64,000 nt of DNA from Flavobacteriales bacterium (GCA_040377305.1 JBEIPA010000010.1:1-64000); one strand, 5' to 3'; positions 48,185 to 64,000 are shown, counted from the stretch's first letter. The notes: a model not told the origin generated them from the letters alone. Numbers and translations: made by a program.

Positions 48185-48889
48185 ATGAGTAATAATGTAA
48201 TCAAGTGCCTGATTGTAGATGATGATGAAATGGTTAGACTGGATCTGGAGTCCCGATTGAGTGCATGGCCAGGAATGCAGGTATTAGCGAGCTGCGGAAC
48301 TGCCATGGATGCATCCAAGCTTCTGGTTGACGGTAACCCCGACCTCATTCTTCTTGATATTAATCTTCCCGGCATGAGCGGATTTTCCTTCGTGGAGAAT
48401 GTGGATCTAAAAGACACGCAGGTAGTTCTTATTACCGGCAATAAGGATCATGCGGCAGACGCGTTCGAGTTTGACGTGACTGACTTTCTGGTAAAACCCT
48501 TCACTGATGCACGCTTTATGAAAGCCATGATGCGCGTTTCAAAGAAAAAGTACATCAATGGAAAAGGCGGCAACGCTGTCGATCACATCTTTGTGAAAGT
48601 GAATTCTGTATTGGAGAAAATAGTCCTTACCGACATTCAGTTCATTGAAGCCATGGCTGACTATGTTTCCATTCAGACCATGACGAAGAAATACACGATT
48701 CACTCAACTATGAAGAGCATCGAGAAGAGCTTGCCGGAGTCTGAATTCATTCGTGTTCACAACTCCTATATCGTTCGTCTCGATCAGATCAGTCGTGTTG
48801 AAGACAATTCTGTGATCATTGGTCAGAAGCTCGTTCCAATCAGCAGAGCGCGTCTGAAGCCCTTAATGGATCGACTCAATCTCCTCTAG
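48185..48889 (+). CDS. LytTR-family response regulator
   Basis: REC domain (IVDDD, LDINLP, KPF) and LytTR motif FIRVHNSYIV. Confidence 0.95.
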   Translation: MSNNVIKCLIVDDDEMVRLDLESRLSAWPGMQVLASCGTAMDASKLLVDGNPDLILLDINLPGMSGFSFVENVDLKDTQVVLITGNKDHAADAFEFDVTDFLVKPFTDARFMKAMMRVSKKKYINGKGGNAVDHIFVKVNSVLEKIVLTDIQFIEAMADYVSIQTMTKKYTIHSTMKSIEKSLPESEFIRVHNSYIVRLDQISRVEDNSVIIGQKLVPISRARLKPLMDRLNLL

Positions 48890-48905
48890 TACCGAAATCC
48901 ACTTG

Positions 48906-48949
48906 CAACAAGACATCAGGTAGATGTATTTTACCTGATGTTCTTGTTG
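48906..48949 (+). terminator. Long stem-loop after the response regulator
   Basis: CAACAAGA-CATCAGGTA / TACCTGATG-T-TCTTGTTG. Confidence 0.65.
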
Positions 48950-49172
48950 TTCCTGCCTGTAAAAAATACCCAGTCGCGTACAGGAAATCGCTGATGTTGG
49001 TCTAAGCATCGAATGTTCGGAAGATCATTCCTTAATTAAACGTACAATTGCGTAGTTGTAGTGGCACATAATTTCCCCAGTTCTGTGGATAATATTCCAC
49101 ATATAGTACACAGTGGGAATGCTTTGGACAATGTGCAATAAAAATTAGTGAACACCGTACTAACAAAGGAGT

Positions 49173-49529
49173 ATGATCGGTCACAGTCATCTAAACCTCA
49201 GTTATATCCGCAATCTGTCGGGCGGTAACAACCAATTCCTCGTGCGTATGCTGCAAACTTTTTGCAAAAATGTCCCCCCTGGTATTGATCAGCTTTTGAA
49301 AGCCGCGGATTCCGGAGATTACGACGAAGTAAAGCAGGTTGCGCACAAATTGAAAACTATGTTCCGATACGTTGGTGTAGATCACGTGGCAGAACACCTT
49401 GAGCGGCTAGAATTCCGAAGCCGTGATTTAACAGACACAGAAAGAAAAAATCTGCTTTCTCATATAGAGACCGCATCGAAACGCGCATTAATTGAGGCGC
49501 AGGACGTAATTTTGACTACCCCTGTTTAG
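49173..49529 (+). CDS. Stand-alone Hpt phosphotransfer protein
   Basis: LSYIRNLSGGN...F and AHKLK His motif. Confidence 0.88.
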   Translation: MIGHSHLNLSYIRNLSGGNNQFLVRMLQTFCKNVPPGIDQLLKAADSGDYDEVKQVAHKLKTMFRYVGVDHVAEHLERLEFRSRDLTDTERKNLLSHIETASKRALIEAQDVILTTPV

Positions 49530-49542
49530 GGTCAAAAGATAC

Positions 49543-51753
49543 ATGTCGGGATTTGCAAATAACATTACCGCGAAAGCGTTCGTAGGCTTTCTGATTCTCG
49601 CCCTTGTATTCGGTGTGGGAACCTATTTGATTTACGTTCGGTTAAACGATCTCGATCCTTCTGTTCAGCGCATCAGAGAACCAAACAAACTTATCCGCCT
49701 TTATCGGGAAACCACCAGGAACTCGAATTCTGCAATAACACTTATGAGACGATTTCTGCTCACAAGTGATACAAATTTCCTGCGCGAATTCGATGGGGTT
49801 TGTTTGCAGATTGACCGTGACCTCGATTCGATGCGAAATTTTGCTGCAGAAGATCCGGTGCGTCTTGCCCGTGTGGATTCATTCGCGGTGTTGATCGATC
49901 AGAAGTTGGAGGAATCTACATACGGCATTGCCATGCTGCAAGGCACTAAGCAGATGAGTATGGCTATTGACAATGCATTGCAGATGCTGGCTGTTGCCGA
50001 ACGGAAACGCGAACAAGTGACTGATCAGGCGGACCGCATAGAAATGACCAGTGGAAAAACGGATGTGAAATCTGAAAGCGATGAACAGGCTTCCGTAATT
50101 CCAAAGAATAATTTATGGAGACGAATTCTCACGAAGCGACAGAAGGAAAAAACGGACACATCGTTAAGCATTGAAGCGATTGCATCGATGCTTGATTCAA
50201 TTATTGCCGATACGAATGTTGTAGCGGGGAACAAAGTTACACCACCAACTCCCGTAGAGGTAGACACGATCAATCGCGCAATGCAAATCGCAGACGAACT
50301 TACCCGGGCTAAAACAGAAGATTACAAAGCGCGCGAAGCTCAACTGGAAAGTGAACTTCAACTTCTTGCTCAGCGGCGTACAACTGATAGTTTGATCACT
50401 GAGTTAGGTATACGAATTTCTCAGGCCGAGAACCAGGCGATTGCCGACCTGATCGGAGACGCATCTGTTGAAGTACGTTCCGCAACGTCTAACATTATCA
50501 CCATTCTGGGTATCGGCGCAGTTGTTCTGATTCTTTTATTCACGATACTCATTCGCGCTGATGTTAAACGTAATGCGAAGCTTCAGGAGCAAATGTCGGA
50601 AGCACGTTTAGCGGCTGAAAATCTCGCTAAAACCAGAGAGGAATTTGCCGCAAATATGAGCCATGAAATCCGGGGTCCATTGAACTCCATCATGGGTATT
50701 TCAGAACAACTCACCAAGAATCCGGGTACTGGAAATCATAAACTCGTAGAAGGATTATTAAGTTCATCACAGCATTTGCTCGGACTTATTAATCCGGTTC
50801 TTGATGTAACCCGATTGAATTCCGGAAAGATCGAATTCGAAATTCATCCCATTGATGTGCGGGAAACTCTGTCCGACGTTCACCGTGCATTCCGGGTATC
50901 TGCAGCAGAAAAGGTAGTGGCACTTGAAGTACTGGTTGGACACGACGTTCCAAAAACGGTAATGGGCGATGATGTTCGCTTGCGACAAATCTTATTCAAC
51001 CTCGTTGGAAATGCAATTAAGTTCACCGATAAAGGCAGTGTTACAATTGCGTGCGAGAATCTCGGATCCGGAAAAAACAATACTATTACTCTGCGTTTCA
51101 AAGTTACCGATACGGGCATTGGAATTGAGCCAAGTGCAATCAATCGCATATTTGACGAGTATGCACAGGCCGATAGCACAATCACACGGAAGTTTGGAGG
51201 AACAGGTTTAGGATTATCTATTTCAAGAAAACTCGTTGAACAGCAAAACGGAAAAATTGCGGTGAAGAGTGAAGTTGGCGAAGGAAGTGAATTCTGTTTT
51301 GACATTCCGTTTGAAGTTGCACCACTGGTCGCTGCAACCTTTGAGAAAAAAACGGTACACGCACAAGTGTTCAAAGGAAAAGAAATCCTGATCTGTGATG
51401 ATGATGAAATGAATCGATTGCTCGCTGGAATGATCATTGCTAATCACGGCGGAACAGTAACAGAATGTGGCGACGGAGAGGAAGTTGTAAAAAAACTCAA
51501 GTCCAATAATTACGATTTGCTGGTACTGGATATCAACCTTCCGGGCATGGATGGAAAGGCAACTGTAGCTGAGTTACGTTTAATCGGAAAGAAACTCCCA
51601 GTGATTGCTGTAACCGGTAACGCTCATGAGGAGGCCCACTTCAGAGAAGCCGGTTTTGATGGGATAATTATAAAGCCTTATCAGGAATCAGAACTGATTT
51701 CGGTCATGAATTCCTTCATTGGTACACAGGAAGACCAAAAAATCGGCAATTAA
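49543..51753 (+). CDS. Hybrid sensor histidine kinase (periplasmic helical sensor, HisKA, HATPase, REC)
   Basis: Two TMs; NMSHEIRGPL, NLVGNAIKFT, DTGIGI, GGTGLGL and receiver LDINLPGMDG. Confidence 0.95.
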   Translation: MSGFANNITAKAFVGFLILALVFGVGTYLIYVRLNDLDPSVQRIREPNKLIRLYRETTRNSNSAITLMRRFLLTSDTNFLREFDGVCLQIDRDLDSMRNFAAEDPVRLARVDSFAVLIDQKLEESTYGIAMLQGTKQMSMAIDNALQMLAVAERKREQVTDQADRIEMTSGKTDVKSESDEQASVIPKNNLWRRILTKRQKEKTDTSLSIEAIASMLDSIIADTNVVAGNKVTPPTPVEVDTINRAMQIADELTRAKTEDYKAREAQLESELQLLAQRRTTDSLITELGIRISQAENQAIADLIGDASVEVRSATSNIITILGIGAVVLILLFTILIRADVKRNAKLQEQMSEARLAAENLAKTREEFAANMSHEIRGPLNSIMGISEQLTKNPGTGNHKLVEGLLSSSQHLLGLINPVLDVTRLNSGKIEFEIHPIDVRETLSDVHRAFRVSAAEKVVALEVLVGHDVPKTVMGDDVRLRQILFNLVGNAIKFTDKGSVTIACENLGSGKNNTITLRFKVTDTGIGIEPSAINRIFDEYAQADSTITRKFGGTGLGLSISRKLVEQQNGKIAVKSEVGEGSEFCFDIPFEVAPLVAATFEKKTVHAQVFKGKEILICDDDEMNRLLAGMIIANHGGTVTECGDGEEVVKKLKSNNYDLLVLDINLPGMDGKATVAELRLIGKKLPVIAVTGNAHEEAHFREAGFDGIIIKPYQESELISVMNSFIGTQEDQKIGN

Positions 51754-52476: not shown

Positions 52477-53475
52477 ATGAAGAGATTATTTCGCTTAACA
52501 CTTCCCGTAAGTGTTTGTAGCACTTTTTTACTGCTCACGTTTAGCGGGTGCAACAAAGAAACGATGGAAGTGGATGTGCAGTTTGTTGAGGCAACTGCGA
52601 GCAGAACTTTTACCACACCTATCACAGAAATTTCATTCGGTTATAGTTCCGATGGGATGCTGGTCACAAGCAACCGGAAAAAAATATACGAGACCGGTAA
52701 CTATGGAACGACTTGGGCCCTTTGCACAACTTTCACTGCGACCAGCTGTTTTGTTGATCAAGTTAGATATACAAACACCGGCACTCTACCCTACTTCATT
52801 TATCATCCCAGCTCCGGCGGACTCGCTCAGATGTACACGAGTATAATCGGGAACTGTTCATACAATGATCAGATCATCTCTTCAGGGAACACGATCGTTC
52901 ACAGCTTTTACAATTCTTCGAGTGGCTATGCATATATCAAGCTTCCGTCGAATAATTATGGACTCGCACAAACTACCGACTTTGGTCAAACGTATACTTA
53001 CCTCTATCCGTCTCCGGTTATTGGCCCGTTCATGCAGTTCACCAGTTCTACTACGGGTTATGCAATAACAGATCAAGACAACTTTTCCAGAACCACTAAC
53101 GGAGGTCTTACGTGGACCGCCACGTTTGGAACCGTTAAGGAGTGCACCAAAGTCACACCAAACGGATTGTGTTTTCTGATTGGTGATGACGAAAAAATAC
53201 GCAAGTCAACCGATTTCGGATTAACATGGACGATATGTTTGAGCGATCCGGGTGGAAATAATTACGAAGCCATTGCGTGTTCAGACAACGGACTTGTAGT
53301 TGTAGCAGCACAAGGTCAGTTGTTGTGTTCACGAGATTTCGGTGCAACATGGAAGTATCTGAAATTCGGAACTTCTTCCATCACACTTACACGCTTGTTG
53401 ATACTTAGTGATGGTTCTGTAATCGGTATCAACGGAAAGACAGTGAGCAAGTACATAATTCCGGAAACGCTGTGA
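52477..53475 (+). CDS. BNR/Asp-box (YCF48-like) beta-propeller lipoprotein
   Basis: Lipobox FSGC; repeats TTDFGQTY, TTNGGLTW, STDFGLTW and SRDFGATW. Confidence 0.85.
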   Translation: MKRLFRLTLPVSVCSTFLLLTFSGCNKETMEVDVQFVEATASRTFTTPITEISFGYSSDGMLVTSNRKKIYETGNYGTTWALCTTFTATSCFVDQVRYTNTGTLPYFIYHPSSGGLAQMYTSIIGNCSYNDQIISSGNTIVHSFYNSSSGYAYIKLPSNNYGLAQTTDFGQTYTYLYPSPVIGPFMQFTSSTTGYAITDQDNFSRTTNGGLTWTATFGTVKECTKVTPNGLCFLIGDDEKIRKSTDFGLTWTICLSDPGGNNYEAIACSDNGLVVVAAQGQLLCSRDFGATWKYLKFGTSSITLTRLLILSDGSVIGINGKTVSKYIIPETL

Positions 53476-54167
53476 AAAAATTCCTCGTACTATTTTTTCT
53501 CACCTGCGGCTCTTCATTGTTTGCTCAGGCGTTCCGTATTGAAATTGGATATAGTCAACTGCGGTATTCACAAATTGGTGCTCTATATTTTGCAAGTCCG
53601 AGCCATGTGCCCACCTGGTACGATATAGCAACAGTAAATCGCGAACTGAAAAGTCCAGGCTTTATATTCAATGGTTATTACCCATTGAATTTTGGAAAGA
53701 AATCGTATGAGATTTTTTCATTTGGTCCTCAAATCGGATTGGCGATGAACGTGTCACACACCACATATTCGGTAGATCTGAATTACCGTAAGTTGCCTTC
53801 TAAAATGAACATGCGCATCCCGCTGATGTTTTCGGTTCGTCTCGGAAGTACTAGTGCTGTGTATCAACGAAAACTTGGAATCGCCATTGCAGGTGGAATT
53901 GAAATGATGCAGCTCCAGTTGGCTGATCAGACTGGTACATTTTACCTGCCGGTAATTCAATCAAGCTTTGCCATCAACCGATTTATGTTCAATGTGAATG
54001 CGTATCCCATGGACATTGAAAGTATGTACACAATCAATGGTGCAGACGTCCCGCGTCTTACCACATCGTTACTTGAGTTTCAGTTTGTGATCGCAATTGA
54101 CGGTAATCCACCGCGCTATCACAACGATGCTCCGAAGAAAGGGAAAAACCGATCGCGCAGGCGTTAA
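53472..54167 (+). CDS. Predicted small outer-membrane beta-barrel protein
   Basis: Signal peptide ending FAQ, amphipathic beta strands, basic tail; GTGA overlap with the upstream gene. Confidence 0.68.
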   Translation: MKKFLVLFFLTCGSSLFAQAFRIEIGYSQLRYSQIGALYFASPSHVPTWYDIATVNRELKSPGFIFNGYYPLNFGKKSYEIFSFGPQIGLAMNVSHTTYSVDLNYRKLPSKMNMRIPLMFSVRLGSTSAVYQRKLGIAIAGGIEMMQLQLADQTGTFYLPVIQSSFAINRFMFNVNAYPMDIESMYTINGADVPRLTTSLLEFQFVIAIDGNPPRYHNDAPKKGKNRSRRR

Positions 54168-54224
54168 GTCCAGGTAGTTTTGCCATGTATTGGCAAAAGG
54201 CTAATTTCGGGTTGCTCGTTTCTC

Positions 54225-55223
54225 ATGACAAATAACCGCACTTTTCATTCTTTACGGTATGTGTTCATTGCTGCATGCATTGCATTCTGTGTCAATTCCT
54301 GTCGTACAGATGAGGTAATCGAAGTGGATATCAAAAAAGCGTCTGTTGTGGTATTGGAACCATTTACTCAGGCTCTTTACAATTTGACGTTCGTGGATTC
54401 CATGCGTGGAATGTTAATCATGAACAGAAGAGTTTACAGAACAACAGATGGCGGACTTACATGGTCCATATCGTACACCCCGGTGACGAATGCTTATGTA
54501 GACAAAATCAGATATGTAACTCCGACCCAAGCGTATTTCGTTTATTACTCTAACTCTTCTGCATTTGGCCGAATGTATTCCAGTTCCAATGGAGGAAGTT
54601 CATGGCAACCTCAATTTCAGTTTGGTGGCGCCTCACTAACTCCTGCATTTTATTCGGCAACGTCTGGTTACGCATATGGCAGAGTACCATCTGGTAGCTA
54701 CGGATTTCATTCCACCGTAGATGGTGGTGCGACATACACGTACCTGTATCCATGCAGTGTCCTCGGTCCACAAATGTACTTTACCAATTCACAAACGGGA
54801 TACGCTATCATGGACTCTGAAGCTTTTGCCAAAACCTCGAATGCAGGGCAAACATGGACTGCAACATTTCATGGGTGCAGAAAATTTACAGAAGTTACTC
54901 CAGTGGGCACCTGCTATCTCATCAACGATCAATTCAAAATTTACAAGTCAACAGATTTTGGCACTACATGGAATCTATGCTTCGAAGATCCCGGCGTTGA
55001 TTATCTCCGCGATATTGTTTGCCTGGATAACGGACTCGTGGTTGTTTCTGCCGATGAAAAACTATTGTGTTCACGTGATGGTGGTGTTTCCTGGTCGTAT
55101 TTGAGTCTGGATGAAAACGTACAATACCTTGACGATTTATATATCCGGAACAATACGACAGTCATCGCACGTAGTTCTGTTACAAACACAGTTGTACGTA
55201 TATCTATACCTGCAGATTTGTGA
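54225..55223 (+). CDS. Paralogous BNR/Asp-box beta-propeller lipoprotein
   Basis: Lipobox VNSC; TTDGGLTW, SSNGGSSW and STDFGTTW; shares YTYLYP..V.GP and LLCSRD with 52477-53475. Confidence 0.85.
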   Translation: MTNNRTFHSLRYVFIAACIAFCVNSCRTDEVIEVDIKKASVVVLEPFTQALYNLTFVDSMRGMLIMNRRVYRTTDGGLTWSISYTPVTNAYVDKIRYVTPTQAYFVYYSNSSAFGRMYSSSNGGSSWQPQFQFGGASLTPAFYSATSGYAYGRVPSGSYGFHSTVDGGATYTYLYPCSVLGPQMYFTNSQTGYAIMDSEAFAKTSNAGQTWTATFHGCRKFTEVTPVGTCYLINDQFKIYKSTDFGTTWNLCFEDPGVDYLRDIVCLDNGLVVVSADEKLLCSRDGGVSWSYLSLDENVQYLDDLYIRNNTTVIARSSVTNTVVRISIPADL

Positions 55224-55915
55224 GAAAGCTATTAATCATATTTCTCGTTGTGTCTGTGCAATCGCTGATGGCACAACTCGTACGCATTGAATTTGGCGGA
55301 AGTTTCCTGATTAATTCTCAGTCTGGAACTGTTTTCGCGCAGGATGTATCTCATTCTCCGGCGTGGTATGATGAGATAAAGATTGAACGACGTTTGTGGC
55401 AACCAACATTCAGTGCACTACTGTATTACCCGATCAACTTCGGCAAACAGTCTTACGAACGGTTTTCTTATGGAATACAAACTGGAGTAGCATTAGGACT
55501 CACGACTCCCGGAAGAGCGTACGACCAGGCGCACTTTACCGAAAACAGCACAGTTCCATTTAGAATTCCGCTTATGGTGATGTTAAGAACCGGCAGCTGC
55601 AATGCACTCTATGATAAAAAACTCGGGCTGGCTTTTGGAGGAGGTGTTGAAATTATTTCATTGAGCTTTGCTGACGAATATGCCAAATTTATTGCTCCGG
55701 TAATTCAGATCGGTTTCGGGATCAAGCGTTCGACAACTTCATTAAACATTTTTCCAACTGCGCTTACAAGCAGCTATCTGAACAATGGTTCTACAACGAA
55801 ACGACTCACGAACAAGCTCATCGAATTCCGGTTTTCGTTAGCGATCGAGTGTACATCCAGTCGCTACCGACGATCGACCGGGATGAAACTTTACCGGAAC
55901 AGATCAGGCAGGTAA
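55220..55915 (+). CDS. Paralogous predicted beta-barrel protein
   Basis: 231 aa like 53472-54167; shares SH.P.WYD, YYP.NFGK.SYE.FS, RIPLM and KLG.A..GG.E. Confidence 0.68.
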   Translation: MRKLLIIFLVVSVQSLMAQLVRIEFGGSFLINSQSGTVFAQDVSHSPAWYDEIKIERRLWQPTFSALLYYPINFGKQSYERFSYGIQTGVALGLTTPGRAYDQAHFTENSTVPFRIPLMVMLRTGSCNALYDKKLGLAFGGGVEIISLSFADEYAKFIAPVIQIGFGIKRSTTSLNIFPTALTSSYLNNGSTTKRLTNKLIEFRFSLAIECTSSRYRRSTGMKLYRNRSGR

Positions 55916-56178: not shown

Positions 56179-56565
56179 ATGAACTATCAGGACAACGAAG
56201 ATTGTATAGCGGTTTGCTTGGGCACTGCATCATTCTGCAATCACACCGCACTCTGGTGCACCGATGTTGAAACACATCGCGTAGAAATGAAGAAATGTAT
56301 TGAGCTTACACTTGAATGTGCAGCGCTATGTGCCGCCACTGCTCAACTCATCAGTATGGGAAGTGAACGCGCGAAAGACTTGTGCCGGTTGTGCGCCGAA
56401 GTTTGCGAAGCCTGTGAAGCACAGTGTAGCAAATTTAACAGCGAAACTTTAATTGCGTGCGCTGAGCTATGTCGTAAATGCTCGACAATATGTCGCGCAG
56501 TATATTCAAAACATTACACCGATTGGTTTCCTGGATTTGATCAGGACAGAATCGGATTGAATTAA
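56179..56565 (+). CDS. Cys-rich four-helix-bundle copper storage protein (Csp3/DUF326-like)
   Basis: 16 Cys in CxxC/CxxxC helical spacing; no signal peptide. Confidence 0.85.
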   Translation: MNYQDNEDCIAVCLGTASFCNHTALWCTDVETHRVEMKKCIELTLECAALCAATAQLISMGSERAKDLCRLCAEVCEACEAQCSKFNSETLIACAELCRKCSTICRAVYSKHYTDWFPGFDQDRIGLN

Positions 56566-59500
56566 ACTTTGAATCCGGCGATGAGTACATCGTCGCATTG
56601 TTCTTCAGTGCCTTTCCAGGTATTGAAAGCGTCTCTGATTGTGTTTCCTTGTTCTTCCATGGGGAGAGACGCAATCATTTTGAGCAGACCTCTCAGATTC
56701 GGCGAAGAGAATTTACTCTGACGTGCTCCTCCAAACTGATCTGTGAAACCATCGCTGTACATGTAGAAGCAGTCGCCGCGATGAAGTTCCAGGGTTATTT
56801 CATCAAACACAGGAGTTGCCCGGGTATACACTCCTCCCAACCCTCCCTTGTGCGTTTTATACACGGTCACTTCTCCTCCGCGCACATGCAAAAGCGGACG
56901 ACCTGCTCCGGCAAAACGCAATATGTTTGTTGCTTTGTCAACCACGCACAAAGCAACGTCAAGTCCATCATGCGAAGAGTCACTGGATGCCTGCTGATGC
57001 AATGATGTTTTTATTTCTTTATTCAGGCTTTCCAGAATAACTGCAGGATTCGAATGGCCCTGATCAAAAACAACTTTGTTGATCAACGTTGAACTGATCA
57101 TGGACATAAACGCTCCAGGAACACCGTGACCCGTACAATCTGCAATCGCTATGAAGAAAAGATTGTCGCGCTCCGCAAACCAATAGAAGTCGCCACTCAC
57201 AATATCTCTTGGCTGGTAAAACACAAAACTATCCGGGAAATTCCGCTGAAAGATTTCCATATCGGTTAGAATCGCGAGCTGAATCCGTTTTGCATAACGT
57301 ATTGAATCGGTAATGTCTTTTGACTTCTGTTCAAGCTCTACATTAATTCGTGCTACACTTTCCTTTTCGGTCTCCAGCAAAAATGTTTTTTCCTTAACCA
57401 GCACTTGCAAACGTTCATTCATATTGACCAATGACACTGTTCGTATCCGTATGATGCTATAAACCAACATGGGCACAACGAGTATCAACATGACTGTGAA
57501 CCACGTTTTCTGCCAGAAAGGAAAGTCTATTGTAATGCGAATTGAATATGGCGTAGCTCCTGTTAGCATTGCGTTACGGGACGGCAAAACCTGAAGTTCA
57601 TAATTACCAGCCGACAATTGAGGAATAACAATCGAGCGGCCAGTTGCACTTCTCCACACGGTATCTGCCCCCATTATGCGGTAGTAAAACGGTCCGAGTG
57701 TATTCGCGGAGAACAGGATGCGATTGAATTCGAAAGTCAGATTGTATGAGCCCGGCTCCAGATTAATAGACCTGGATGGCACGCGCTCACTACCATCTAT
57801 AAAAAGACTGGCCAATGAAATGCGCGGATCCTGTCGGAGGTATTCTTTCGAGTCAGGCATCACTTCTATCAATCCGTTCTCCGAACATAAATACACAGAG
57901 CCTGACACATCATGAAAGACACATGGATTCAGTTTGTCGAAAAGCTTATTGTCGGTGCCGGTGAAGGAGTAAAAAAATGAGTCGCCCGGAAATTTCATAC
58001 TGATACCACTCCGGTGAATGATCCAGAGAATTCCGGCCTCGTCTGTACTTGCTGCAATACAATGATCGGAACGCAAACCGTTTTGCATCGAGTACATTTC
58101 ATTAACCTGCGAGCCTCCTGAAGGCGATAACGTAAATGAAAAAACACCGTCACCATCGGTGGTTACCCAATGCTGACCAGATGCATCGTCACAAACAGAA
58201 TTGATGACGTACGATTGCAGGTTAACAATATCATTCACCACTTTAACCTCACCGTGTTGCATCATATATGGCGGACTACCTTGCGAAGCAAACCAAACGT
58301 TGCCCGATGCATCGGCATTAAGCTGTCTGATATTGTTATGCGCCAGGCCATTTAATGTCGTATAGTACTGAGGTGGCGTACTGATATCCGCAAAAATGTA
58401 TAAGCCGTCTGACGTACCAACATATACTTCACCATTCGCTGCGTTCACGATGCCCGTAATTACTCTCGAATTCAGATGATACTTTTGAGAAATGTTTTCA
58501 AATCGGTCTGTGAGACGGGAATAGACATAAACGCCCTTCCCTTCCGTTCCAATCCACAACCTACCCGAGGTATCAATCGAAAGGCAAGACACTACTTCGT
58601 TAACGAATCCGTTACTTGCATCAAACTGTTTCGAATCTGACGCGCTTATTCGTGACACACCCGAGTCAGTTCCAATCCACATGTCGCCCAGATCATCTTT
58701 CAATACACAATTCACTTCGGGTCGTAACAAACCATTCTGTGTGGTATAGAACCGAAACACAGAATATGGAATCTCGACGAGGCCACTACCGAATGTTCCT
58801 ATCCACAGGTTATTCTCCGTATCAACAAACAGAGATTGAATATTATTATCGATCAACCCGGATGTTTCATTGAATACCTCAAAAGTGCGCGGCAGAAATG
58901 CAGGCGTAAAATCGAGTTTGTACAATCCATGTCCCATTGTACCTATCCACACCGTGTTGTCGTTGTTAAACTCAATGGCAGATACACTTACATCCGCACG
59001 AATCTGTGGTGCACCTAATTTACCTCTGAGCTCAAATGACTCTTGTCCGGCTGTGTAGTAGTAGACACCATCGTTCTCAACTGCAACAAAAAGAACGTCC
59101 TGCTGAAACATTTTCCCCAGGCAAACACTGGTGATATTTCGATTCTGAGTTTCCGGGAGTACATACAACAGATGCACCGAAAGATCAGCGAGCACTTCGT
59201 ATATACGTACGCCTGATTCGCTACCCACAACGAGGTGATCATTGAACGACACTACCGTGCCACGAAGAATATCACCACCCGACACCATGTTAACTTTATG
59301 GGTAAATGGATCAACGCGAAATAATCCGTTCCCTTCAGAAACACCCCACACGTTTCCATAGGCGTCTTCTGTAAAGGAATTTATTCGGCCTCGCACCTGC
59401 GTAGTTGAATCAACTATACTCGCGACATTCCGGTTGATAGAAGTAATTCCCGATTGAAAATGACCAACCCAAACCGTGCCATTGGTCCCCGAGCACACTT

Positions 59501-59741
59501 CCGACACCTGTTGTTCAGCCAGAGATTTTACCGGAGCCGCTTTCGAGAAGAAGTCTCCGTTGTAACTGATGACACCGGATTCAGTGCCCAAAATCAGTAC
59601 ACCATTCGTATCCTGATCAATAGAGAAAATGAATTTTTGCTCGAGACCTTTGTCTTCTGAGAACACACGCGTCGAAAATACCTGCGCATCCAATTGGCTA
59701 CATACAAGAAACAACAGCACATTTACAATCCAGTAACGCAT
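56562..59741 (-). CDS. Membrane sensor phosphatase: beta-propeller (Reg_prop) repeats, Y_Y_Y-like domain, TM, coiled coil, SpoIIE/PP2C
   Basis: D..G.(L/M)WIGT repeats, PFWQKTWF, IVSGDFY, ADCTGHGVPGA, YSDGFTDQFGG and DDVL. Confidence 0.93.
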   Translation of the reverse strand: MRYWIVNVLLFLVCSQLDAQVFSTRVFSEDKGLEQKFIFSIDQDTNGVLILGTESGVISYNGDFFSKAAPVKSLAEQQVSEVCSGTNGTVWVGHFQSGITSINRNVASIVDSTTQVRGRINSFTEDAYGNVWGVSEGNGLFRVDPFTHKVNMVSGGDILRGTVVSFNDHLVVGSESGVRIYEVLADLSVHLLYVLPETQNRNITSVCLGKMFQQDVLFVAVENDGVYYYTAGQESFELRGKLGAPQIRADVSVSAIEFNNDNTVWIGTMGHGLYKLDFTPAFLPRTFEVFNETSGLIDNNIQSLFVDTENNLWIGTFGSGLVEIPYSVFRFYTTQNGLLRPEVNCVLKDDLGDMWIGTDSGVSRISASDSKQFDASNGFVNEVVSCLSIDTSGRLWIGTEGKGVYVYSRLTDRFENISQKYHLNSRVITGIVNAANGEVYVGTSDGLYIFADISTPPQYYTTLNGLAHNNIRQLNADASGNVWFASQGSPPYMMQHGEVKVVNDIVNLQSYVINSVCDDASGQHWVTTDGDGVFSFTLSPSGGSQVNEMYSMQNGLRSDHCIAASTDEAGILWIIHRSGISMKFPGDSFFYSFTGTDNKLFDKLNPCVFHDVSGSVYLCSENGLIEVMPDSKEYLRQDPRISLASLFIDGSERVPSRSINLEPGSYNLTFEFNRILFSANTLGPFYYRIMGADTVWRSATGRSIVIPQLSAGNYELQVLPSRNAMLTGATPYSIRITIDFPFWQKTWFTVMLILVVPMLVYSIIRIRTVSLVNMNERLQVLVKEKTFLLETEKESVARINVELEQKSKDITDSIRYAKRIQLAILTDMEIFQRNFPDSFVFYQPRDIVSGDFYWFAERDNLFFIAIADCTGHGVPGAFMSMISSTLINKVVFDQGHSNPAVILESLNKEIKTSLHQQASSDSSHDGLDVALCVVDKATNILRFAGAGRPLLHVRGGEVTVYKTHKGGLGGVYTRATPVFDEITLELHRGDCFYMYSDGFTDQFGGARQSKFSSPNLRGLLKMIASLPMEEQGNTIRDAFNTWKGTEEQCDDVLIAGFKV

Positions 59742-59745
59742 AAAC

Positions 59746-60708
59746 TTATTTAGTTTGTTTCATTCCAATTTTATAGCGGTAACGAGGAACACCACCGATT
59801 GGTACAGTGTAAAAAGGCAACAGCTCGCCGTACTGATTCGTGATGAACACCACTATGTTATTATTCCGAACTGCATTCTGCTTAACAAACTGTACATCAA
59901 GTGAGGTATTGATTTCGTCCATCACTGTAGGATGTGTAGTGTCGACCCACTTTCCATCACCGTCCGCTTTGAAAAGCTCTCCCTTTTTAGCAACAGAAAT
60001 AATACGGACCATTCCATCCCGGTCGTAGTCGAAAATATTAATCTTAACTGCGATTACATTTTGAGAGACAAACGGGTATATGTGTGAGATGGATCCGACA
60101 GCATCGGGCAGGCGAAAGCAGAACTCGTATGCAAAAGAATTACCACCTTCCAATTCCACATTCGCATCGCGCTTCGACGACAAAAACAATTTGTACAGGT
60201 TGCCATCATCCCCCTCAAGTCCTTCAATGATGAGTTTGAAAACATATCCGCCGAACTCTGGCTGTAACTCCCCTTCAATCGGACTGAACGGTCCGAACGT
60301 ATACCATTTTCCATCATAGGCAGTGTCCTGACTGAACGTCATCGATTTCAATTGCACACCAATTCTGAAATTTCCAACGGGATCTTGTTTCCGTGCATCC
60401 GCATTTGAGTGACAACCTTCGCCACCATATACAGTAAAACGCGTCGTGGTATTAAAGCCTCCCTTATTTTCATCACACCCTCCGCCTGCATCAGCATCAA
60501 AAACCCGTATGTATAAAGGTTGGTTGGAGCTTTTAGGAATACAGAAGAAAAATGTCTGCACGAAATCGTCATCACCCCACGATTTGTCAGCTCCATTACC
60601 GAATGTGACAAGAAACGGAAAGTTCTGATCCAGGGCCGGAACCTGTTGCCCATATATGGTAGAACCAAGAAGGGAGAATACGAGGATTGGGAGTAAACGC
60701 TTTTTCAT
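59746..60708 (-). CDS. Secreted hypothetical protein
   Basis: Signal peptide ending YGQ; SWGDDDF, IRVFD and GDDGNLY motifs. Start moved to MKKRLL. Confidence 0.78.
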   Translation of the reverse strand: MKKRLLPILVFSLLGSTIYGQQVPALDQNFPFLVTFGNGADKSWGDDDFVQTFFFCIPKSSNQPLYIRVFDADAGGGCDENKGGFNTTTRFTVYGGEGCHSNADARKQDPVGNFRIGVQLKSMTFSQDTAYDGKWYTFGPFSPIEGELQPEFGGYVFKLIIEGLEGDDGNLYKLFLSSKRDANVELEGGNSFAYEFCFRLPDAVGSISHIYPFVSQNVIAVKINIFDYDRDGMVRIISVAKKGELFKADGDGKWVDTTHPTVMDEINTSLDVQFVKQNAVRNNNIVVFITNQYGELLPFYTVPIGGVPRYRYKIGMKQTK

Positions 60709-60712
60709 AATT

Positions 60713-62140
60713 TCAATTGACCACAGTTTTTTTGACAACACACCGACTCTCGGTTGCGCCCGTTTCTTTGTTCTTCAGTAATAAATAAATACGCGGATAG
60801 TAAACTCCAGTGCGGTGATAAGCATGCGTAAGTACGATACCTGTTCCGGTTGTACCATTGTCCAGATCATAGTACGCACTTAACAATTCATATTGCTTAG
60901 GATCAATCACCGCAGTGCCAATCGTAAACAATTGATGTTGCTTAATGGAATCCGGCGAATTAATATTCATGTAATTGGGCTGTGCGATACTGAATTCATA
61001 ATTCGTCTCGCTAATGATTACATCACCGCCCGAACTATCCCGCACGGTAAGAAGTATGGAGTACTCACCGGTTGTGTCAAAACACTTTTTGAGTTCATAT
61101 CCGTAATGAACAGTCCCGTCACTGAAGTTCCAGGTATATTTCATCTTCGCTGTGTCTCCGTTGCGCACGGTTGCTTCTTCGAAAAAGTCATAACAAAGTT
61201 CCACGGGCACAATCGTATCCTGTCGGTCTGCCGCGGGCCAGGAGTACGTGAAGTAGTAAATATCATCGTCTGCTTTTTCGTTCCCCCGATTGGAGGAAAA
61301 GAATCCTTCGGTATTCGTCGCATTCACGTAAAATGCAAAATCGTCTGCCGAAGAATTGATAGGATATGAAAGTCGTTGCACAGTGGAGTACGCTGTATCA
61401 GCAATTGCAATCGCAAGAATATCAAGTCCACCTGAACCGCCTGAACGGTTGCTGCTGAAATACAATACACCTGTTGCGGAACAGAATGGGAACAATTCAT
61501 TGTAGGGAGAGTTAATCTTTCTGCCCGCATTAATTGGCTGTGACCAGTTCGATCCGACTTTGTATACATAGTAGATGTCCATTCCTCCAAAGCCTCCGGG
61601 ACAATCCGACGCGAAGAATAACACAGAATCGCCTGAAGCAAATGATGGATGCACGTAATTGAAATCAGGGCCACAGAAAGCCAGTGCGCCTGCCTCCGTC
61701 CACTTGCCTTTCACGCGTAGCGATTGTAAAAGCGTCAACGTATTCTTATTTCTTGCGTTGCCGGTGTAGATTGCTGCCTGATGATCGCTGCTGAATGTTA
61801 CGGGACCTTCATTATAGGAACGCGTATTCAGTGCTTCTGAAAATGCAACCGGATGTGAGAATTCACCAGACCTTGTTTTCCGCACATAATACAAATCAAG
61901 CAAAGGATTATCGCGATCAGCGCTGAAGAAGCGCACTGCCAGATCATCGGAACGGCCAGAAGAGAAAACATATCCCTGATCATAAGGAGTCGCCGCGAAA
62001 TCTGAAACCTTCGAATTGAATTCAGGTTTAATACACTTGAACCAGGCTGTATCCGTGTTCATTCCTAATAACACACTGCCGTTCTGCGCAGAAAGAATCT
62101 GCACGCACAGCAAAGCGTGAATCAGGAACAGTGTTCTCAT
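60713..62140 (-). CDS. PorE-like PD40 beta-propeller protein with PKD domains, no OmpA domain
   Basis: NEGP, LFFASD.PGGFGGMDIY, LYFSSNR.GG.GGLDI and INSSADDF, then WNFSDG and YDLDNG PKD motifs. Confidence 0.82.
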   Translation of the reverse strand: MRTLFLIHALLCVQILSAQNGSVLLGMNTDTAWFKCIKPEFNSKVSDFAATPYDQGYVFSSGRSDDLAVRFFSADRDNPLLDLYYVRKTRSGEFSHPVAFSEALNTRSYNEGPVTFSSDHQAAIYTGNARNKNTLTLLQSLRVKGKWTEAGALAFCGPDFNYVHPSFASGDSVLFFASDCPGGFGGMDIYYVYKVGSNWSQPINAGRKINSPYNELFPFCSATGVLYFSSNRSGGSGGLDILAIAIADTAYSTVQRLSYPINSSADDFAFYVNATNTEGFFSSNRGNEKADDDIYYFTYSWPAADRQDTIVPVELCYDFFEEATVRNGDTAKMKYTWNFSDGTVHYGYELKKCFDTTGEYSILLTVRDSSGGDVIISETNYEFSIAQPNYMNINSPDSIKQHQLFTIGTAVIDPKQYELLSAYYDLDNGTTGTGIVLTHAYHRTGVYYPRIYLLLKNKETGATESRCVVKKTVVN

Positions 62141-63015
62141 CGGAATCGTGGATTAGCACGCTGAACAGTGTAACCAAAGTCATAACGCAACAGTATTTCA
62201 TGCGAACCGGAAGAGTATGACCTCAAATTCGATGTCGAAAAATCGTAGGAATAACCAACGGAGCACTGATCATTCACCCGCACATTCGCCATCGCAACCA
62301 TTGCGTCTTTGTGACGGTAACCCACGCCGAAGCCAATGCGGTCGCGTAACATGCAATTCGCATTTACATCAAATTGGTGGTAGCCTTTCGTCATGACTCT
62401 TCCCAACGTAGAAATGGTGAAGCGCGCTTTCTGCACATCTCCGAAACGAACTCCGGTAAATACCTGAATGGGCTGATCGGAAATACCACCCGGTTCACCC
62501 ATCACCGTGCGATTCGAAATACCGAAAAAGAAATGTTCGGAGTTCATTGACACTCCGTAACCAATTGTGAATCGTGTGTATTGGTCATTCGCACTGAACG
62601 CAGCATCTCCCTGCGCATTGGTTACAATCTCACTCCAGTTGTTTCTGAATAACTCTGCTCCCGGCGCAATTCCTGCAGCGAATGAAACGCGAGGAGTAAT
62701 AATTCTGTATGCGTACGAAAGACTTACCTCTGAGCGATGAATAACAGCAAGATTATCCTGCGCAGCAATCAAACCGATGTTATGATGCAGGTTCTTTACC
62801 GGAGAATGAATGGTAAACACAAATGTTTCCGGTGCACCATTAAAGCCGAGCCACTGCTTACGCGCGCTGAGTGTTGCCGACATGTAACCAATTTCTCCCG
62901 CGTTTGCCGGATTAATGGTCATTGGATTATTCATATACTGCGTCTGCAAAGGATTGAATTGCGCAATCGCAGCGAATGAGATGAGAACAAAAACAAACGT
63001 CAACGTTCTTTTCAT
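62137..63015 (-). CDS. Type IX secretion system membrane protein, PorP/SprF family
   Basis: QYM.N...INPA.AG, RKQW.G..GAP.T, GYSYD and GSHEI.LRY. Confidence 0.93.
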   Translation of the reverse strand: MKRTLTFVFVLISFAAIAQFNPLQTQYMNNPMTINPANAGEIGYMSATLSARKQWLGFNGAPETFVFTIHSPVKNLHHNIGLIAAQDNLAVIHRSEVSLSYAYRIITPRVSFAAGIAPGAELFRNNWSEIVTNAQGDAAFSANDQYTRFTIGYGVSMNSEHFFFGISNRTVMGEPGGISDQPIQVFTGVRFGDVQKARFTISTLGRVMTKGYHQFDVNANCMLRDRIGFGVGYRHKDAMVAMANVRVNDQCSVGYSYDFSTSNLRSYSSGSHEILLRYDFGYTVQRANPRFR

Positions 63016-64000
63016 AGCGTTGTTCGTTTTATGGCAATGAAGCCGGTGAATACTTTTGCTTCGTCCGCTTTCAGCACGTAATAATAAATGTCATCCGGAA
63101 GCTGTTCTCCGTTCATGCCGGTTCCATTCCAGTTGTTCTCGTAGTGTTGCGACACATAAACCTGATTTCCCCAGCGATTGAACACTTCAAATGCCGGACT
63201 TTCGAATTCATCGAGGCCAGTGACTTCAAAATATTCGTTCACACCATCTCCATTTGGGGAGAACCCACTCGGCACGATTAACTGCAGAATTTCAATGCGC
63301 ATGTCATCTGAATTTTCAGGACACGTTCCGTTCGAACTCCTCCATCTCAGAATATTTACACCGGGCGACAAATTTGAAACACGTGTGAATGGATCGTGAA
63401 TGTCATCGAATGTTCCTGAACCCTGAACGAAAGACCAAGTGCCCAATCCTGTGTCAATTGGATTTGCAGCGAGTTGAAACGACGTATTGTATCCTACAAT
63501 ATCCGGCCCGGCCAGCGCAACAGTTGGAGGTGAATACACCGTAATAGAAACAGTATCGGGTTCAGAGATGCAGAAACCATTTTGTGTGGTCCACTGGTAA
63601 TTCCATGTTCCGGCAGATAGTGTTGGCAGAATAGCGTTCGCATTTGTGGAATCCGGAATTGCAGGACTACCGTTAATGCTTTGCCAAAAACCTGTACCCA
63701 ATGATGGAGCTTGTGCCTGCAATGAAATTTGTTCTCCGCAAGCAAATAGATCTGACCCGGCATTTGCAAGCGATGGAAGTTGATTGTAAGTGATAACCAC
63801 GGTGTCTGTATTAGAAGCACAACTACCATTGGTGATGGTCCAAACGAAAATGTTCTGACCTACAGAAAGATTATTCACTTCGCATTCCGGTGACAACGCA
63901 TTGCTTAATGTTGCACCACCGCCGATCACGCTCCATACGCCATCGCCAATGACCGGTGTGTTTCCGAACAACGTGTCAAGCGGCAAACAACTATTCACAT
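63012..64000 (-). CDS. T9SS type B CTD cargo with Ig-like repeats (5' part outside the window)
   Basis: A.AG.D...G.W repeats; PSGFSPNGDGVNE...FNRWG...Y.N.W.G...G.I.IKR. Confidence 0.92.
   Translation of the reverse strand, partial: VNSCLPLDTLFGNTPVIGDGVWSVIGGGATLSNALSPECEVNNLSVGQNIFVWTITNGSCASNTDTVVITYNQLPSLANAGSDLFACGEQISLQAQAPSLGTGFWQSINGSPAIPDSTNANAILPTLSAGTWNYQWTTQNGFCISEPDTVSITVYSPPTVALAGPDIVGYNTSFQLAANPIDTGLGTWSFVQGSGTFDDIHDPFTRVSNLSPGVNILRWRSSNGTCPENSDDMRIEILQLIVPSGFSPNGDGVNEYFEVTGLDEFESPAFEVFNRWGNQVYVSQHYENNWNGTGMNGEQLPDDIYYYVLKADEAKVFTGFIAIKRTTL

What the first reader, a model, noticed from the sequence alone, without database searches (positions are those of the whole stretch)
56562..64000. 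T9SS adhesin-PorP-PD40/PKD operon wired to a transmembrane SpoIIE sensor phosphatase
Seen: five tightly packed minus-strand genes (ATGA overlaps or 4-bp gaps): type B cargo, PorP/SprF, PD40 protein, unknown secreted protein and propeller-Y_Y_Y-TM-PP2C. Known: type B cargo/PorP/PorE-like triplets display surface proteins, PorE proteins usually end in a peptidoglycan-binding OmpA-like domain, and SpoIIE/RsbU phosphatases drive partner-switching control of sigma factors. Here the PorE-like protein has PKD domains instead of OmpA and no clear lipobox. Inference: a trans-envelope surface-sensing chain from adhesin through barrel and periplasmic adaptors to an inner-membrane phosphatase. This is the best protein-level candidate for an undescribed system in the window.
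Basis: partly seen in the sequence, partly recalled or inferred. Interest (0 to 1): 0.72.

Follow-up and report, generated by a model that had tools for sequence, protein, structure and literature searches.

The report
Adhesin-linked sensor feeding a SiaC switch
Five tightly packed genes join a surface-adhesin anchoring set to an unnamed, highly conserved secreted protein and a membrane sensor-phosphatase; the last two travel together across many Bacteroidota and likely signal through a SiaC-type protein switch, which would be an undescribed way for these bacteria to sense their envelope or surface.

Summary
The five genes and their junctions are confirmed: type B T9SS cargo (1803 aa, runs past the window), PorP, PD40-PKD, an unnamed 320-aa protein (UNK) and a propeller-Y_Y_Y-TM-PP2C sensor. 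Three corrections follow. (1) The conserved core is UNK plus sensor. In a class-wide sample the sensor follows UNK in 49 of 56 judgeable loci, but all five genes occur in only 19; 20 loci have the pair alone. (2) PKD does not replace OmpA: 35 of 84 relatives carry both. (3) The phosphatase is SiaA-type. siaC follows it in 16 of 97 loci and no STAS gene does. SiaC is in 61 of 64 UNK genomes, and the three without it are those whose sensor ends in a histidine kinase. This genome has no GGDEF gene, so the output is open. UNK is a predicted double jelly-roll, twice as conserved as its neighbours, also fused to PKD arrays and BlaR1-like transducers: likely a co-receptor. No physical contact was shown (co-folding unavailable); surface sensing is untested. 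The scan found this cassette before in two other genomes. I found no description in the papers searched.

The parts
63012..64000 (-). 3' end of the type B T9SS cargo gene. Whole protein 1803 aa (G000:C15:63012-68423): signal peptide, SBBP-type propeller head, about 15 PKD-like units of 83 aa, type B C-terminal signal
   Evidence: CHU_C E 1e-22, TIGR04131 above cut-off, NF047494 SBBP partial match below cut-off; 14 motifs at 83-aa period with one double gap
62137..63015 (-). PorP/SprF-family outer-membrane barrel, 292 aa
   Evidence: PF11751 E 3e-55; TIGR03519 above cut-off
60713..62140 (-). PorE-like secreted protein, 475 aa: PD40 propeller (about residues 40-299) plus a cassette-specific pair of PKD domains (300-475); no TPR, no OmpA and no lipobox in this copy
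   Evidence: the PKD pair folds as two complete beta-sandwiches, pLDDT 90.7
59746..60708 (-). UNK: unnamed 320-aa secreted protein; predicted two jelly-roll domains (about 19-179 and 193-293), conserved acidic motifs, and a short C-terminal tail that the model leaves unplaced; likely periplasmic co-receptor
   Evidence: no family; 3012 homologues among 3611 candidates; model pLDDT 86.8; fold comparisons; invariant residues
56562..59741 (-). Inner-membrane sensor, 1059 aa: signal peptide, HTCS-type propellers and Y_Y_Y domain, one TM helix, coiled linker, SiaA-type PP2C phosphatase
   Evidence: NF038263 SiaA E 7e-58 on residues 794-1059; PDB 6K4E E 3e-37; PDB 4A2L E 2e-121 for the family profile
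57444..57500 (-). Predicted transmembrane helix of the sensor (residues 748-766)
   Evidence: hydropathy scan

Best explanation
The five genes encode a type B adhesin with its PorP anchor and a PorE-like protein, an unnamed secreted protein (UNK) and a membrane sensor with an intact SiaA-type phosphatase domain; UNK likely acts as a periplasmic co-receptor that gates the sensor and likely docks on the PKD pair of the PorE-like protein, so that the state of the anchored adhesin complex would set how much of a SiaC-type switch protein is dephosphorylated. Step by step: (1) the cargo is likely exported by T9SS and held by PorP, with the PD40 propeller on the periplasmic side (inferred from the P. 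gingivalis PG1035-PorP-PorE complex); (2) UNK likely binds the PKD pair through its C-terminal tail (inferred from fusions and tail change); (3) UNK likely binds the sensor's propellers (inferred from linkage and co-loss); (4) the phosphatase likely acts on SiaC, opposed by SiaB (inferred from homology, gene order and co-occurrence); (5) SiaC's target is not a diguanylate cyclase in this genome and is unidentified. The UNK-sensor-SiaC core is modular: some lineages run it without the adhesin set, and some swap the phosphatase for a histidine kinase. My odds: core with SiaC output about 0.7; physical tether to the adhesin complex about 0.45; the cue being mechanical surface contact about 0.25.
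For: Linkage: sensor directly after UNK in 120 of 137 de-duplicated loci, 11 other, 6 cut by contig ends; 49 of 56 judgeable loci in the class-wide sample. Dedicated sensor: 65 linked sensors fall in one branch (FastTree support 94 and 96) that holds only one of 21 unlinked ones, itself a displaced copy in a UNK locus. Co-loss: six family genomes with UNK have a 704-909 bit sensor at the locus, while 13 without UNK reach at most 615 bits; the cassette-type PKD pair scores 149 bits or more in 8 of 43 genomes, all with the cassette, and at most 68 bits in those 13. PKD link: UNK is fused directly to PKD arrays in many other proteins; its tail is short in PKD-linked loci (median 14 aa, 1 of 99 at 22 or more) and rebuilt in PKD-less loci (median 27, 18 of 26 at 22 or more), in two separate branches; two M56 fusions lack the tail. 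Sensory role: UNK 53% mean pairwise identity against 28% for the sensor periplasm and 30% for the PKD pair; UNK is the extracytoplasmic domain of two BlaR1-like M56 proteins; UNK-PKD fusions follow a FecR-Ig gene or a kinase in 10 of 18 distinct loci. Output: SiaA residues D457, D474, C475, G477, D600, G601, D653 (PMC7647112) match D851, D868, C869, G871, D997, G998, D1050; siaC directly behind the sensor in 16 of 97 loci, 7 of them with siaB in between; SiaC in 61 of 64 UNK genomes against 155 of 337 others; 5 of 6 genomes with kinase output have no SiaC.
Against: The adhesin set is dispensable: 29 of the 49 judgeable sensor-bearing class loci have neither PorP nor cargo, and 20 lack the PKD gene too; a close PKD pair was not found elsewhere in 21 of 24 genomes with a PKD-less locus. 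UNK plus PKD persists with no sensor found at E 1e-100 in four genomes (G641, G549, G567, G517), so the UNK-sensor pair is not obligatory either. The first PKD domain is modelled with its own first strand, which does not support tail-as-donor-strand. This copy has no lipid anchor and no OmpA domain, so its ability to transmit load is doubtful. No siaB or siaC lies at this locus, and 81 of 97 phosphatase loci have no siaC directly behind; 52 similar phosphatases share four SiaC proteins in this genome, so specificity is unclear. One kinase-output genome keeps a SiaC. The tail change rests on two events and the kinase swap on about three. Kin are not independent, and most genomes are incomplete assemblies.
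Confidence: 0.42

Rival explanations
1. UNK is a ligand-binding co-receptor for a chemical cue in the periplasm (metal ion, sugar or cell-wall fragment) and signals through the sensor to SiaC; the adhesin genes are only co-expressed or are a regulated output, with no signal passing from adhesin to sensor.
For: UNK plus sensor alone in 20 of 56 loci; UNK far more conserved than its protein neighbours, with invariant Asp-rich motifs; weak fold matches to collagen-binding, pre-peptidase and carbohydrate-binding jelly-rolls, Z 8.4 or less; M56 fusions and tip positions on membrane-anchored Ig stalks; the closest solved sensor domains are of the HTCS type, which bind sugars (recalled).
Against: The five-gene order is kept in both deep branches of the UNK tree while the cargo varies from 563 to 2465 aa; the PKD pair occurs only with UNK; the tail changes when PKD is lost; no ligand was identified.
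Confidence: 0.33
2. UNK is a structural, chaperone-like or enzymatic part of the periplasmic adhesin-anchoring complex, and the sensor is a long-standing operon neighbour that works independently of it.
For: UNK plus PKD without a detectable sensor in four genomes; 11 of 137 loci have another gene after UNK; UNK-PKD fusions lack a signalling neighbour in 8 of 18 distinct loci; invariant Arg, His and Asp residues could be catalytic.
Against: The pair survives loss of all adhesin genes in 20 loci and two lineages; the sensor branch is specific to UNK loci and was not found in 13 UNK-less relatives; the link survives a swap of output domain.
Confidence: 0.15
3. One reading: the phosphatase acts on a STAS anti-anti-sigma protein and controls a sigma factor through an RsbW-type kinase.
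For: The genome has two STAS genes and one RsbW-like gene; the domain is Pfam SpoIIE; SiaC is itself structurally related to STAS (PMC8457831, passage).
Against: The best solved relative is SiaA at E 3e-37, the next at 3e-4; no homologue of this genome's STAS genes occurs in any locus, and the four RsbW hits lie about 6 kb from the sensor behind an unrelated gene, as at the housekeeping site in this genome; siaC/siaB adjacency and co-occurrence point to SiaC.
Confidence: 0.07

Closest known systems
Type B cargo / PorP(SprF) / PorE-like triplets (P. gingivalis PG1035-PorP-PorE; F. johnsoniae Fjoh_3952-3951-3950; PMC9143113, PMC12618676)
   Same: Type B C-terminal signal, adjacent PorP barrel and downstream PD40 propeller protein in the same order; many relatives keep the OmpA domain.
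   Different: The PorE-like protein has no lipobox, usually no TPR, a PKD pair after the propeller, and no OmpA in this copy. Two further genes (UNK, sensor) follow. The passages I read give known triplets an anchoring role only.
SiaABCD of Pseudomonas aeruginosa (PMC7647112, PMC8457831; PDB 6K4E)
   Same: SiaA-type PP2C with all named active-site residues; SiaB (DUF6272) and SiaC (PF09345) in the genome, and directly behind the sensor in some relatives; all four SiaC here keep the Asn-Thr of the T68 site.
   Different: The input is a propeller-Y_Y_Y periplasmic domain plus an accessory protein, and the SiaA model matches only the cytoplasmic part. There is no SiaD and no GGDEF gene in the genome. 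siaB and siaC are not at this locus.
Bacteroides hybrid two-component sensors (PDB 4A2L, 3V9F, 3OTT)
   Same: Reg_prop propellers, Y_Y_Y domain and one TM helix (profile E 2e-121).
   Different: The output is a phosphatase, or in 6 of 137 loci a histidine kinase; there is no AraC fusion; neighbours are T9SS and UNK genes, not glycan-utilisation genes.
Accessory-protein sensors such as LuxP-LuxQ, NlpE-CpxA and RcsF-IgaA (recalled, no call)
   Same: A separate extracytoplasmic protein would gate a membrane signalling enzyme; NlpE and RcsF report surface contact or envelope state.
   Different: No sequence or fold relation was tested or found; a functional analogy only.
LipL32 family (PF12103)
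   Same: Language-model features of UNK residues 21-192 are closest to LipL32-family clusters (score 0.93); LipL32 is a calcium-binding jelly-roll (PMC8951592, passage).
   Different: Profile-profile probability 4% or less, no PDB sequence hit, and not among the top 50 fold matches. A lead only.

Membership tests
Type B cargo/PorP/PorE triplet | Cargo with type B C-terminal signal | tested here: met
   CHU_C and TIGR04131 above cut-off; SprA present in the genome
Type B cargo/PorP/PorE triplet | Adjacent PorP/SprF barrel | tested here: met
PorE family | PD40 beta-propeller homologous to PorE | tested here: met
   NF052230 residues 40-299, E 3e-46, 158 bits against cut-off 600
PorE family | Lipoprotein with N-terminal TPR | tested here: not met
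   No lipobox by inspection and no TPR hit
PorE family | C-terminal OmpA-like peptidoglycan-binding domain | tested here: not met
   Absent in this copy; present after the PKD pair in 35 of 84 complete relatives
Type B cargo/PorP/PorE triplet | Physical cargo-PorP-PorE complex | not tested
   No co-folding job was run
SiaABCD | SiaA-type PP2C with intact metal-binding residues | tested here: met
   motifs kept in 91-101 of 101 sensors
SiaABCD | Full-length SiaA architecture | tested here: not met
   NF038263 matches profile positions 395-657 of 658 only, 197 bits against cut-off 700
SiaABCD | siaB and siaC in the same operon | tested here: not met
   Not at this locus; elsewhere in the genome; adjacent in 16 of 97 related loci
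SiaABCD | SiaD diguanylate cyclase output | tested here: not met
   No GGDEF match in a genome rated 99.99% complete; control rang in 8 of 14 genomes
SiaABCD | Dephosphorylation of SiaC | not testable with these tools
   Needs an enzyme assay
Hybrid two-component system | Propeller-Y_Y_Y-TM sensor | tested here: met
Hybrid two-component system | Fused kinase-receiver-AraC output | tested here: not met
   The C-terminus is PP2C
RsbU/SpoIIE-STAS-anti-sigma switch | Linked STAS and anti-sigma genes | tested here: not met
   None adjacent in any locus searched with this genome's three genes as queries; unlinked copies exist
LipL32 (PF12103) | Detectable homology or matching fold | tested here: inconclusive
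   Atlas lead; not confirmed by hhalign with a shallow profile or by fold search of the two-domain model

The most novel reading that the evidence does not exclude
A continuous trans-envelope relay: a T9SS-displayed adhesin on PorP, a PorE-like propeller-PKD protein, the UNK co-receptor and a propeller sensor-phosphatase convert surface attachment or load on the adhesin into dephosphorylation of SiaC, which drives a c-di-GMP-independent lifestyle switch in Bacteroidota. UNK would define a new sensory domain family reused with kinases, cyclases and BlaR1-like transducers in other phyla.
Probability: 0.25. Interest if true: 0.87.

Novelty: new variant of a known kind. Interest (0 to 1): 0.63.

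Why it matters
Type B cargo-PorP-PorE complexes are described as anchors; a link to a cytoplasmic phospho-switch would give T9SS adhesins a sensory role. SiaC occurs in about half of the sampled class (216 of 401 genomes), here without any diguanylate cyclase, so its inputs and output are open; this locus names one input and gives testable parts. UNK is an unnamed family of thousands of proteins that recurs beside several kinds of signalling enzyme, so its ligand or partner is worth finding even if the adhesin tether proves wrong.

Tried and rejected
Inter-protein mutual information on 102 paired rows (effective number 68): top z 6.2 against 5.5 and 5.8 in two shuffles that also destroy relatedness; inconclusive. 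Mirror-distance correlation UNK versus sensor r = 0.74, with no control gene; not used. Tail as donor strand for PKD1: the model has its own first strand; dropped as a specific mechanism. LipL32 homology: not confirmed. Fold searches: no clear match; Foldseek TM 0.24 or less, best Z 8.4 over about 100 residues, rmsd 3.1; single domains were not folded separately. UNK-sensor or PD40-PKD-UNK fusions: none among 42 longer hits from 7997 scored candidates or among the hits over 340 aa in the 150 representatives; weak evidence. One UNK-PorP and one cargo-like-UNK chimera (P0146, P0275) carry half a domain each and were treated as probable assembly artefacts. RNA runs: no RNA holder listed. Promoter/terminator scan: promoter-like sites below the shuffle mean, nothing usable. 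The IQ-TREE run did not finish; trees are FastTree only and unrooted. Literature searches that returned no description of this module in their listings; the library lacks most subscription papers, and no supplements were read.
Full report
1. Observation. The five minus-strand genes, their ATGA overlaps and 4-bp gaps are as described. The window is G000:C15:1-64000. The cargo continues to C15:68423 and is 1803 aa: signal peptide, an SBBP-type propeller head, about 15 PKD-like units of 83 aa and a type B signal. PorP is above its family cut-offs. The third protein matches the PorE model only over its propeller and ends in two PKD domains. UNK has no Pfam or NCBIfam family. The sensor has Reg_prop, a weak Y_Y_Y, one TM helix and a SpoIIE-type domain. 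By inspection the last three have ordinary signal peptides followed by Gln, and none has a T9SS C-terminal signal, so the PD40-PKD protein and UNK are predicted to stay in the periplasm. The genome has SprA, 19 PorP genes and 52 SpoIIE-type genes, and one UNK.

2. How conserved is the cassette? I used two samples. The 80 best of 498 confirmed genome loci are biased to close relatives: 52 of 55 loci not cut by contig ends have all five genes, and 3 lack the adjacent sensor. The less biased sample came from 401 genomes drawn across the class, of which 64 have UNK. I fetched 66 loci from 61 of these; the window's own genome and two with only fragments were left out. Of 56 judgeable loci, 19 have all five genes, 20 have UNK and sensor only, 9 have a PKD gene, UNK and sensor, 1 has PorP, PKD, UNK and sensor, and 7 have no adjacent sensor. 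So the sensor follows UNK in 49 of 56, a PKD gene precedes it in 35, PorP in 22 and cargo in 20. Distribution is patchy: 10 of 29 genomes in the order (this tally includes one unpublished genome) and 15 of 401 in a phylum sample. With nine shared contigs removed, the two samples give 137 loci: sensor next in 120, another gene in 11, cut in 6; output is a phosphatase in 104, a histidine kinase in 6, other or cut in 10. OmpA follows the PKD pair in 35 of 84 complete PD40-PKD proteins, and its presence changes at least 10 times on the UNK tree. PKD is therefore an addition and OmpA is optional.

3. UNK and the sensor are a dedicated pair. On a tree of 86 periplasmic sensor regions, all 65 UNK-linked ones lie in one branch (FastTree support 94, and 96 without the longest row). 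The only one of 21 unlinked sensors inside it is a displaced copy in a UNK locus. The outgroup is mostly this genome's paralogues, which limits the test. In the window's family, six genomes with UNK have a 704-909 bit sensor hit at the locus. Thirteen without UNK reach 393-615 bits, in a class that also appears as the second hit in five UNK genomes; I call these paralogues from score and span, not from a tree. Against a strict pair: four genomes keep UNK and a PKD gene with no sensor at E 1e-100, and one keeps sensor and UNK apart.

4. The PKD link. The cassette-type PKD pair scores 149 bits or more in 8 of 43 genomes, all with the cassette. It scores at most 68 bits in the 13 UNK-less relatives, and at most 81 in 21 of 24 genomes with a PKD-less locus; two others have a second, full cassette and one has an 89-bit partial hit. 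Only 77 candidates per genome were scored and divergent partners score low, so a distant partner is not excluded. UNK's tail follows the PKD gene: median 14 residues in 99 PKD-linked loci, median 27 in 26 PKD-less loci. These are two branches on a UNK tree built without the tail. In the larger branch a TPR protein follows the sensor (Pfam-checked for 3 loci, the rest judged by size); in the smaller a thioredoxin-domain gene lies upstream. Many other proteins fuse UNK directly to 1-16 PKD domains. The model of the PKD pair has both domains complete, so strand donation is not supported. Tail binding remains an inference from two events.

5. What UNK is. The model (pLDDT 86.8) has two beta-sandwich domains with only generic jelly-roll matches, Z 8.4 at best. 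It is much more conserved than its neighbours: 53% against 28% and 30% mean pairwise identity (the PKD alignment has 79 rows, the others 102), with invariant acidic motifs. That suits a ligand or metal site better than a plain adaptor (inference). The domain recurs as the extracytoplasmic part of two BlaR1-like M56 proteins, at the tip of membrane-anchored Ig/TIG stalks, and at the head of PKD arrays; named sources of the last include Desulfonema, Thiorhodococcus and a planctomycete. I looked at 20 loci of the PKD-array form, 18 after removing two that appear to be duplicates; three of the 18 are near-copies of each other. Eight have a FecR-Ig gene directly upstream, six of those with a membrane kinase or cyclase before it where visible; two have a kinase directly upstream; eight have no adjacent signalling gene. 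A LipL32 resemblance from the language-model search was not confirmed.

6. The output is SiaC-type. The cytoplasmic part matches the SiaA model (E 7e-58), and its best solved relative is P. aeruginosa SiaA, 6K4E (E 3e-37; next 3e-4). The residues that PMC7647112 names as conserved are all kept, and the motifs are kept in 91 to 101 of 101 sensors. In 16 of 97 phosphatase loci with room to judge, a Pfam-confirmed siaC follows on the same strand, in 7 with a siaB-type gene between. No STAS homologue was found in any locus, using this genome's two STAS genes as queries. SiaC is in 61 of the 64 UNK genomes and in 155 of the other 337 (the 401 include two unpublished genomes). The three UNK genomes without it are the three whose sensor ends in a kinase; of three further kinase-output genomes two lack SiaC and one has it. 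This genome has four SiaC, two SiaB, two STAS and one RsbW-like gene, none at this locus, and no GGDEF domain. In P. aeruginosa SiaC activates the cyclase SiaD (PMC8457831), so the target here must differ.

7. Mechanism and odds. Shown: gene content, order, co-occurrence and an intact active site. Inferred: T9SS display and PorP/PorE-type anchoring, by analogy with PMC9143113 and PMC12618676; UNK binding to the PKD pair and to the sensor; SiaC as substrate. Untested: any contact, the cue and the final output. I favour a co-receptor tethered to the adhesin anchor (0.42) over a purely chemical co-receptor with co-expressed adhesin genes (0.33), a structural UNK with an independent sensor (0.15) and STAS/sigma output (0.07).

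8. Comparison and novelty. The parts belong to known kinds: the type B triplet, the HTCS-type sensor domain and the SiaABC switch. The third protein fails the PorE tests for lipid anchor, TPR and OmpA; the locus fails the SiaABCD tests for operon and cyclase. The combination and the UNK family were not found in the listings of seven literature searches. What I read: PMC9143113, part 1 of 6 of the text plus passages; passages only of PMC12618676, PMC7647112, PMC8457831 and PMC8951592; all others as search listings. Supplements were not read; operon tables there could list such loci. HTCS sugar sensing and the LuxP, NlpE and RcsF analogies are recalled. Two earlier notes of this scan describe the same cassette in other genomes, and others describe SiaB/SiaC without a cyclase in Bacteroidota; they are not independent evidence. 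Verdict: real, conserved, a new variant of known kinds with one unnamed component; interest 0.63.

Noticed in passing
L100:3639-12611, L107:3368-11971, L108:5998-14646, L178:3464-11132, L181:3651-11213, L182:3586-12752: A second, separate module: dCache/HAMP histidine kinase or adenylate/guanylate cyclase, then a (LysM)-FecR-Ig protein, then a UNK domain heading a long PKD array. Looks like another undescribed signalling cassette.
   Followed up: partly
proteins P0133 and P0272 (no locus fetched): BlaR1-like peptidase M56 proteins whose C-terminal extracytoplasmic domain is UNK without its tail.
   Followed up: partly
proteins P0152, P0186, P0191, P0197, P0209, P0226, P0258 (no locus fetched): Proteins, several with an N-terminal membrane anchor, carrying Ig/TIG stalks and a UNK domain at the C-terminal tip; taxonomy and context not determined.
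   Followed up: no
G000 genome; e.g. C45:120015-125603: 52 SpoIIE-type phosphatases (51 scoring over 200 bits with the cassette profile) but only four SiaC, two SiaB and no GGDEF; a paralogous propeller-phosphatase lies 1.3 kb upstream of siaB-siaC on C45.
   Followed up: partly
L127:2847-3848, L141:2731-3762, L148:2835-3791: In PKD-less lineages a TPR protein with an apparent signal peptide follows the sensor and UNK gains a longer tail; possible partner replacement.
   Followed up: partly
L033:4713-9089, L114:4662-10169, L121 upstream of 10386: Two PD40-PKD-OmpA genes in tandem between porP and UNK.
   Followed up: no
L137:7923-8708; L160:7966-9798: A peptidoglycan-binding M15 peptidase gene takes the sensor's place in one full T9SS locus; a cytoplasmic hybrid kinase gene sits between the PKD gene and UNK in L160 and L169.
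   Followed up: no
window 52477-55915 (+): Two tandem pairs of a BNR-repeat probable lipoprotein (332 and 347 aa) and a 231-aa secreted protein with no Pfam family (only the BNR proteins had hits).
   Followed up: no
window 56179-56565 (+): 128-aa Cys-rich protein with no Pfam hit, convergent with the sensor and overlapping its stop by 4 bp; resembles four-helix copper-storage proteins (recalled).
   Followed up: no
window 48185-51753 (+): LytTR-type response regulator, Hpt-like protein and CHASE3 hybrid histidine kinase in a row (for the kinase; the first two labels are from sequence inspection).
   Followed up: no
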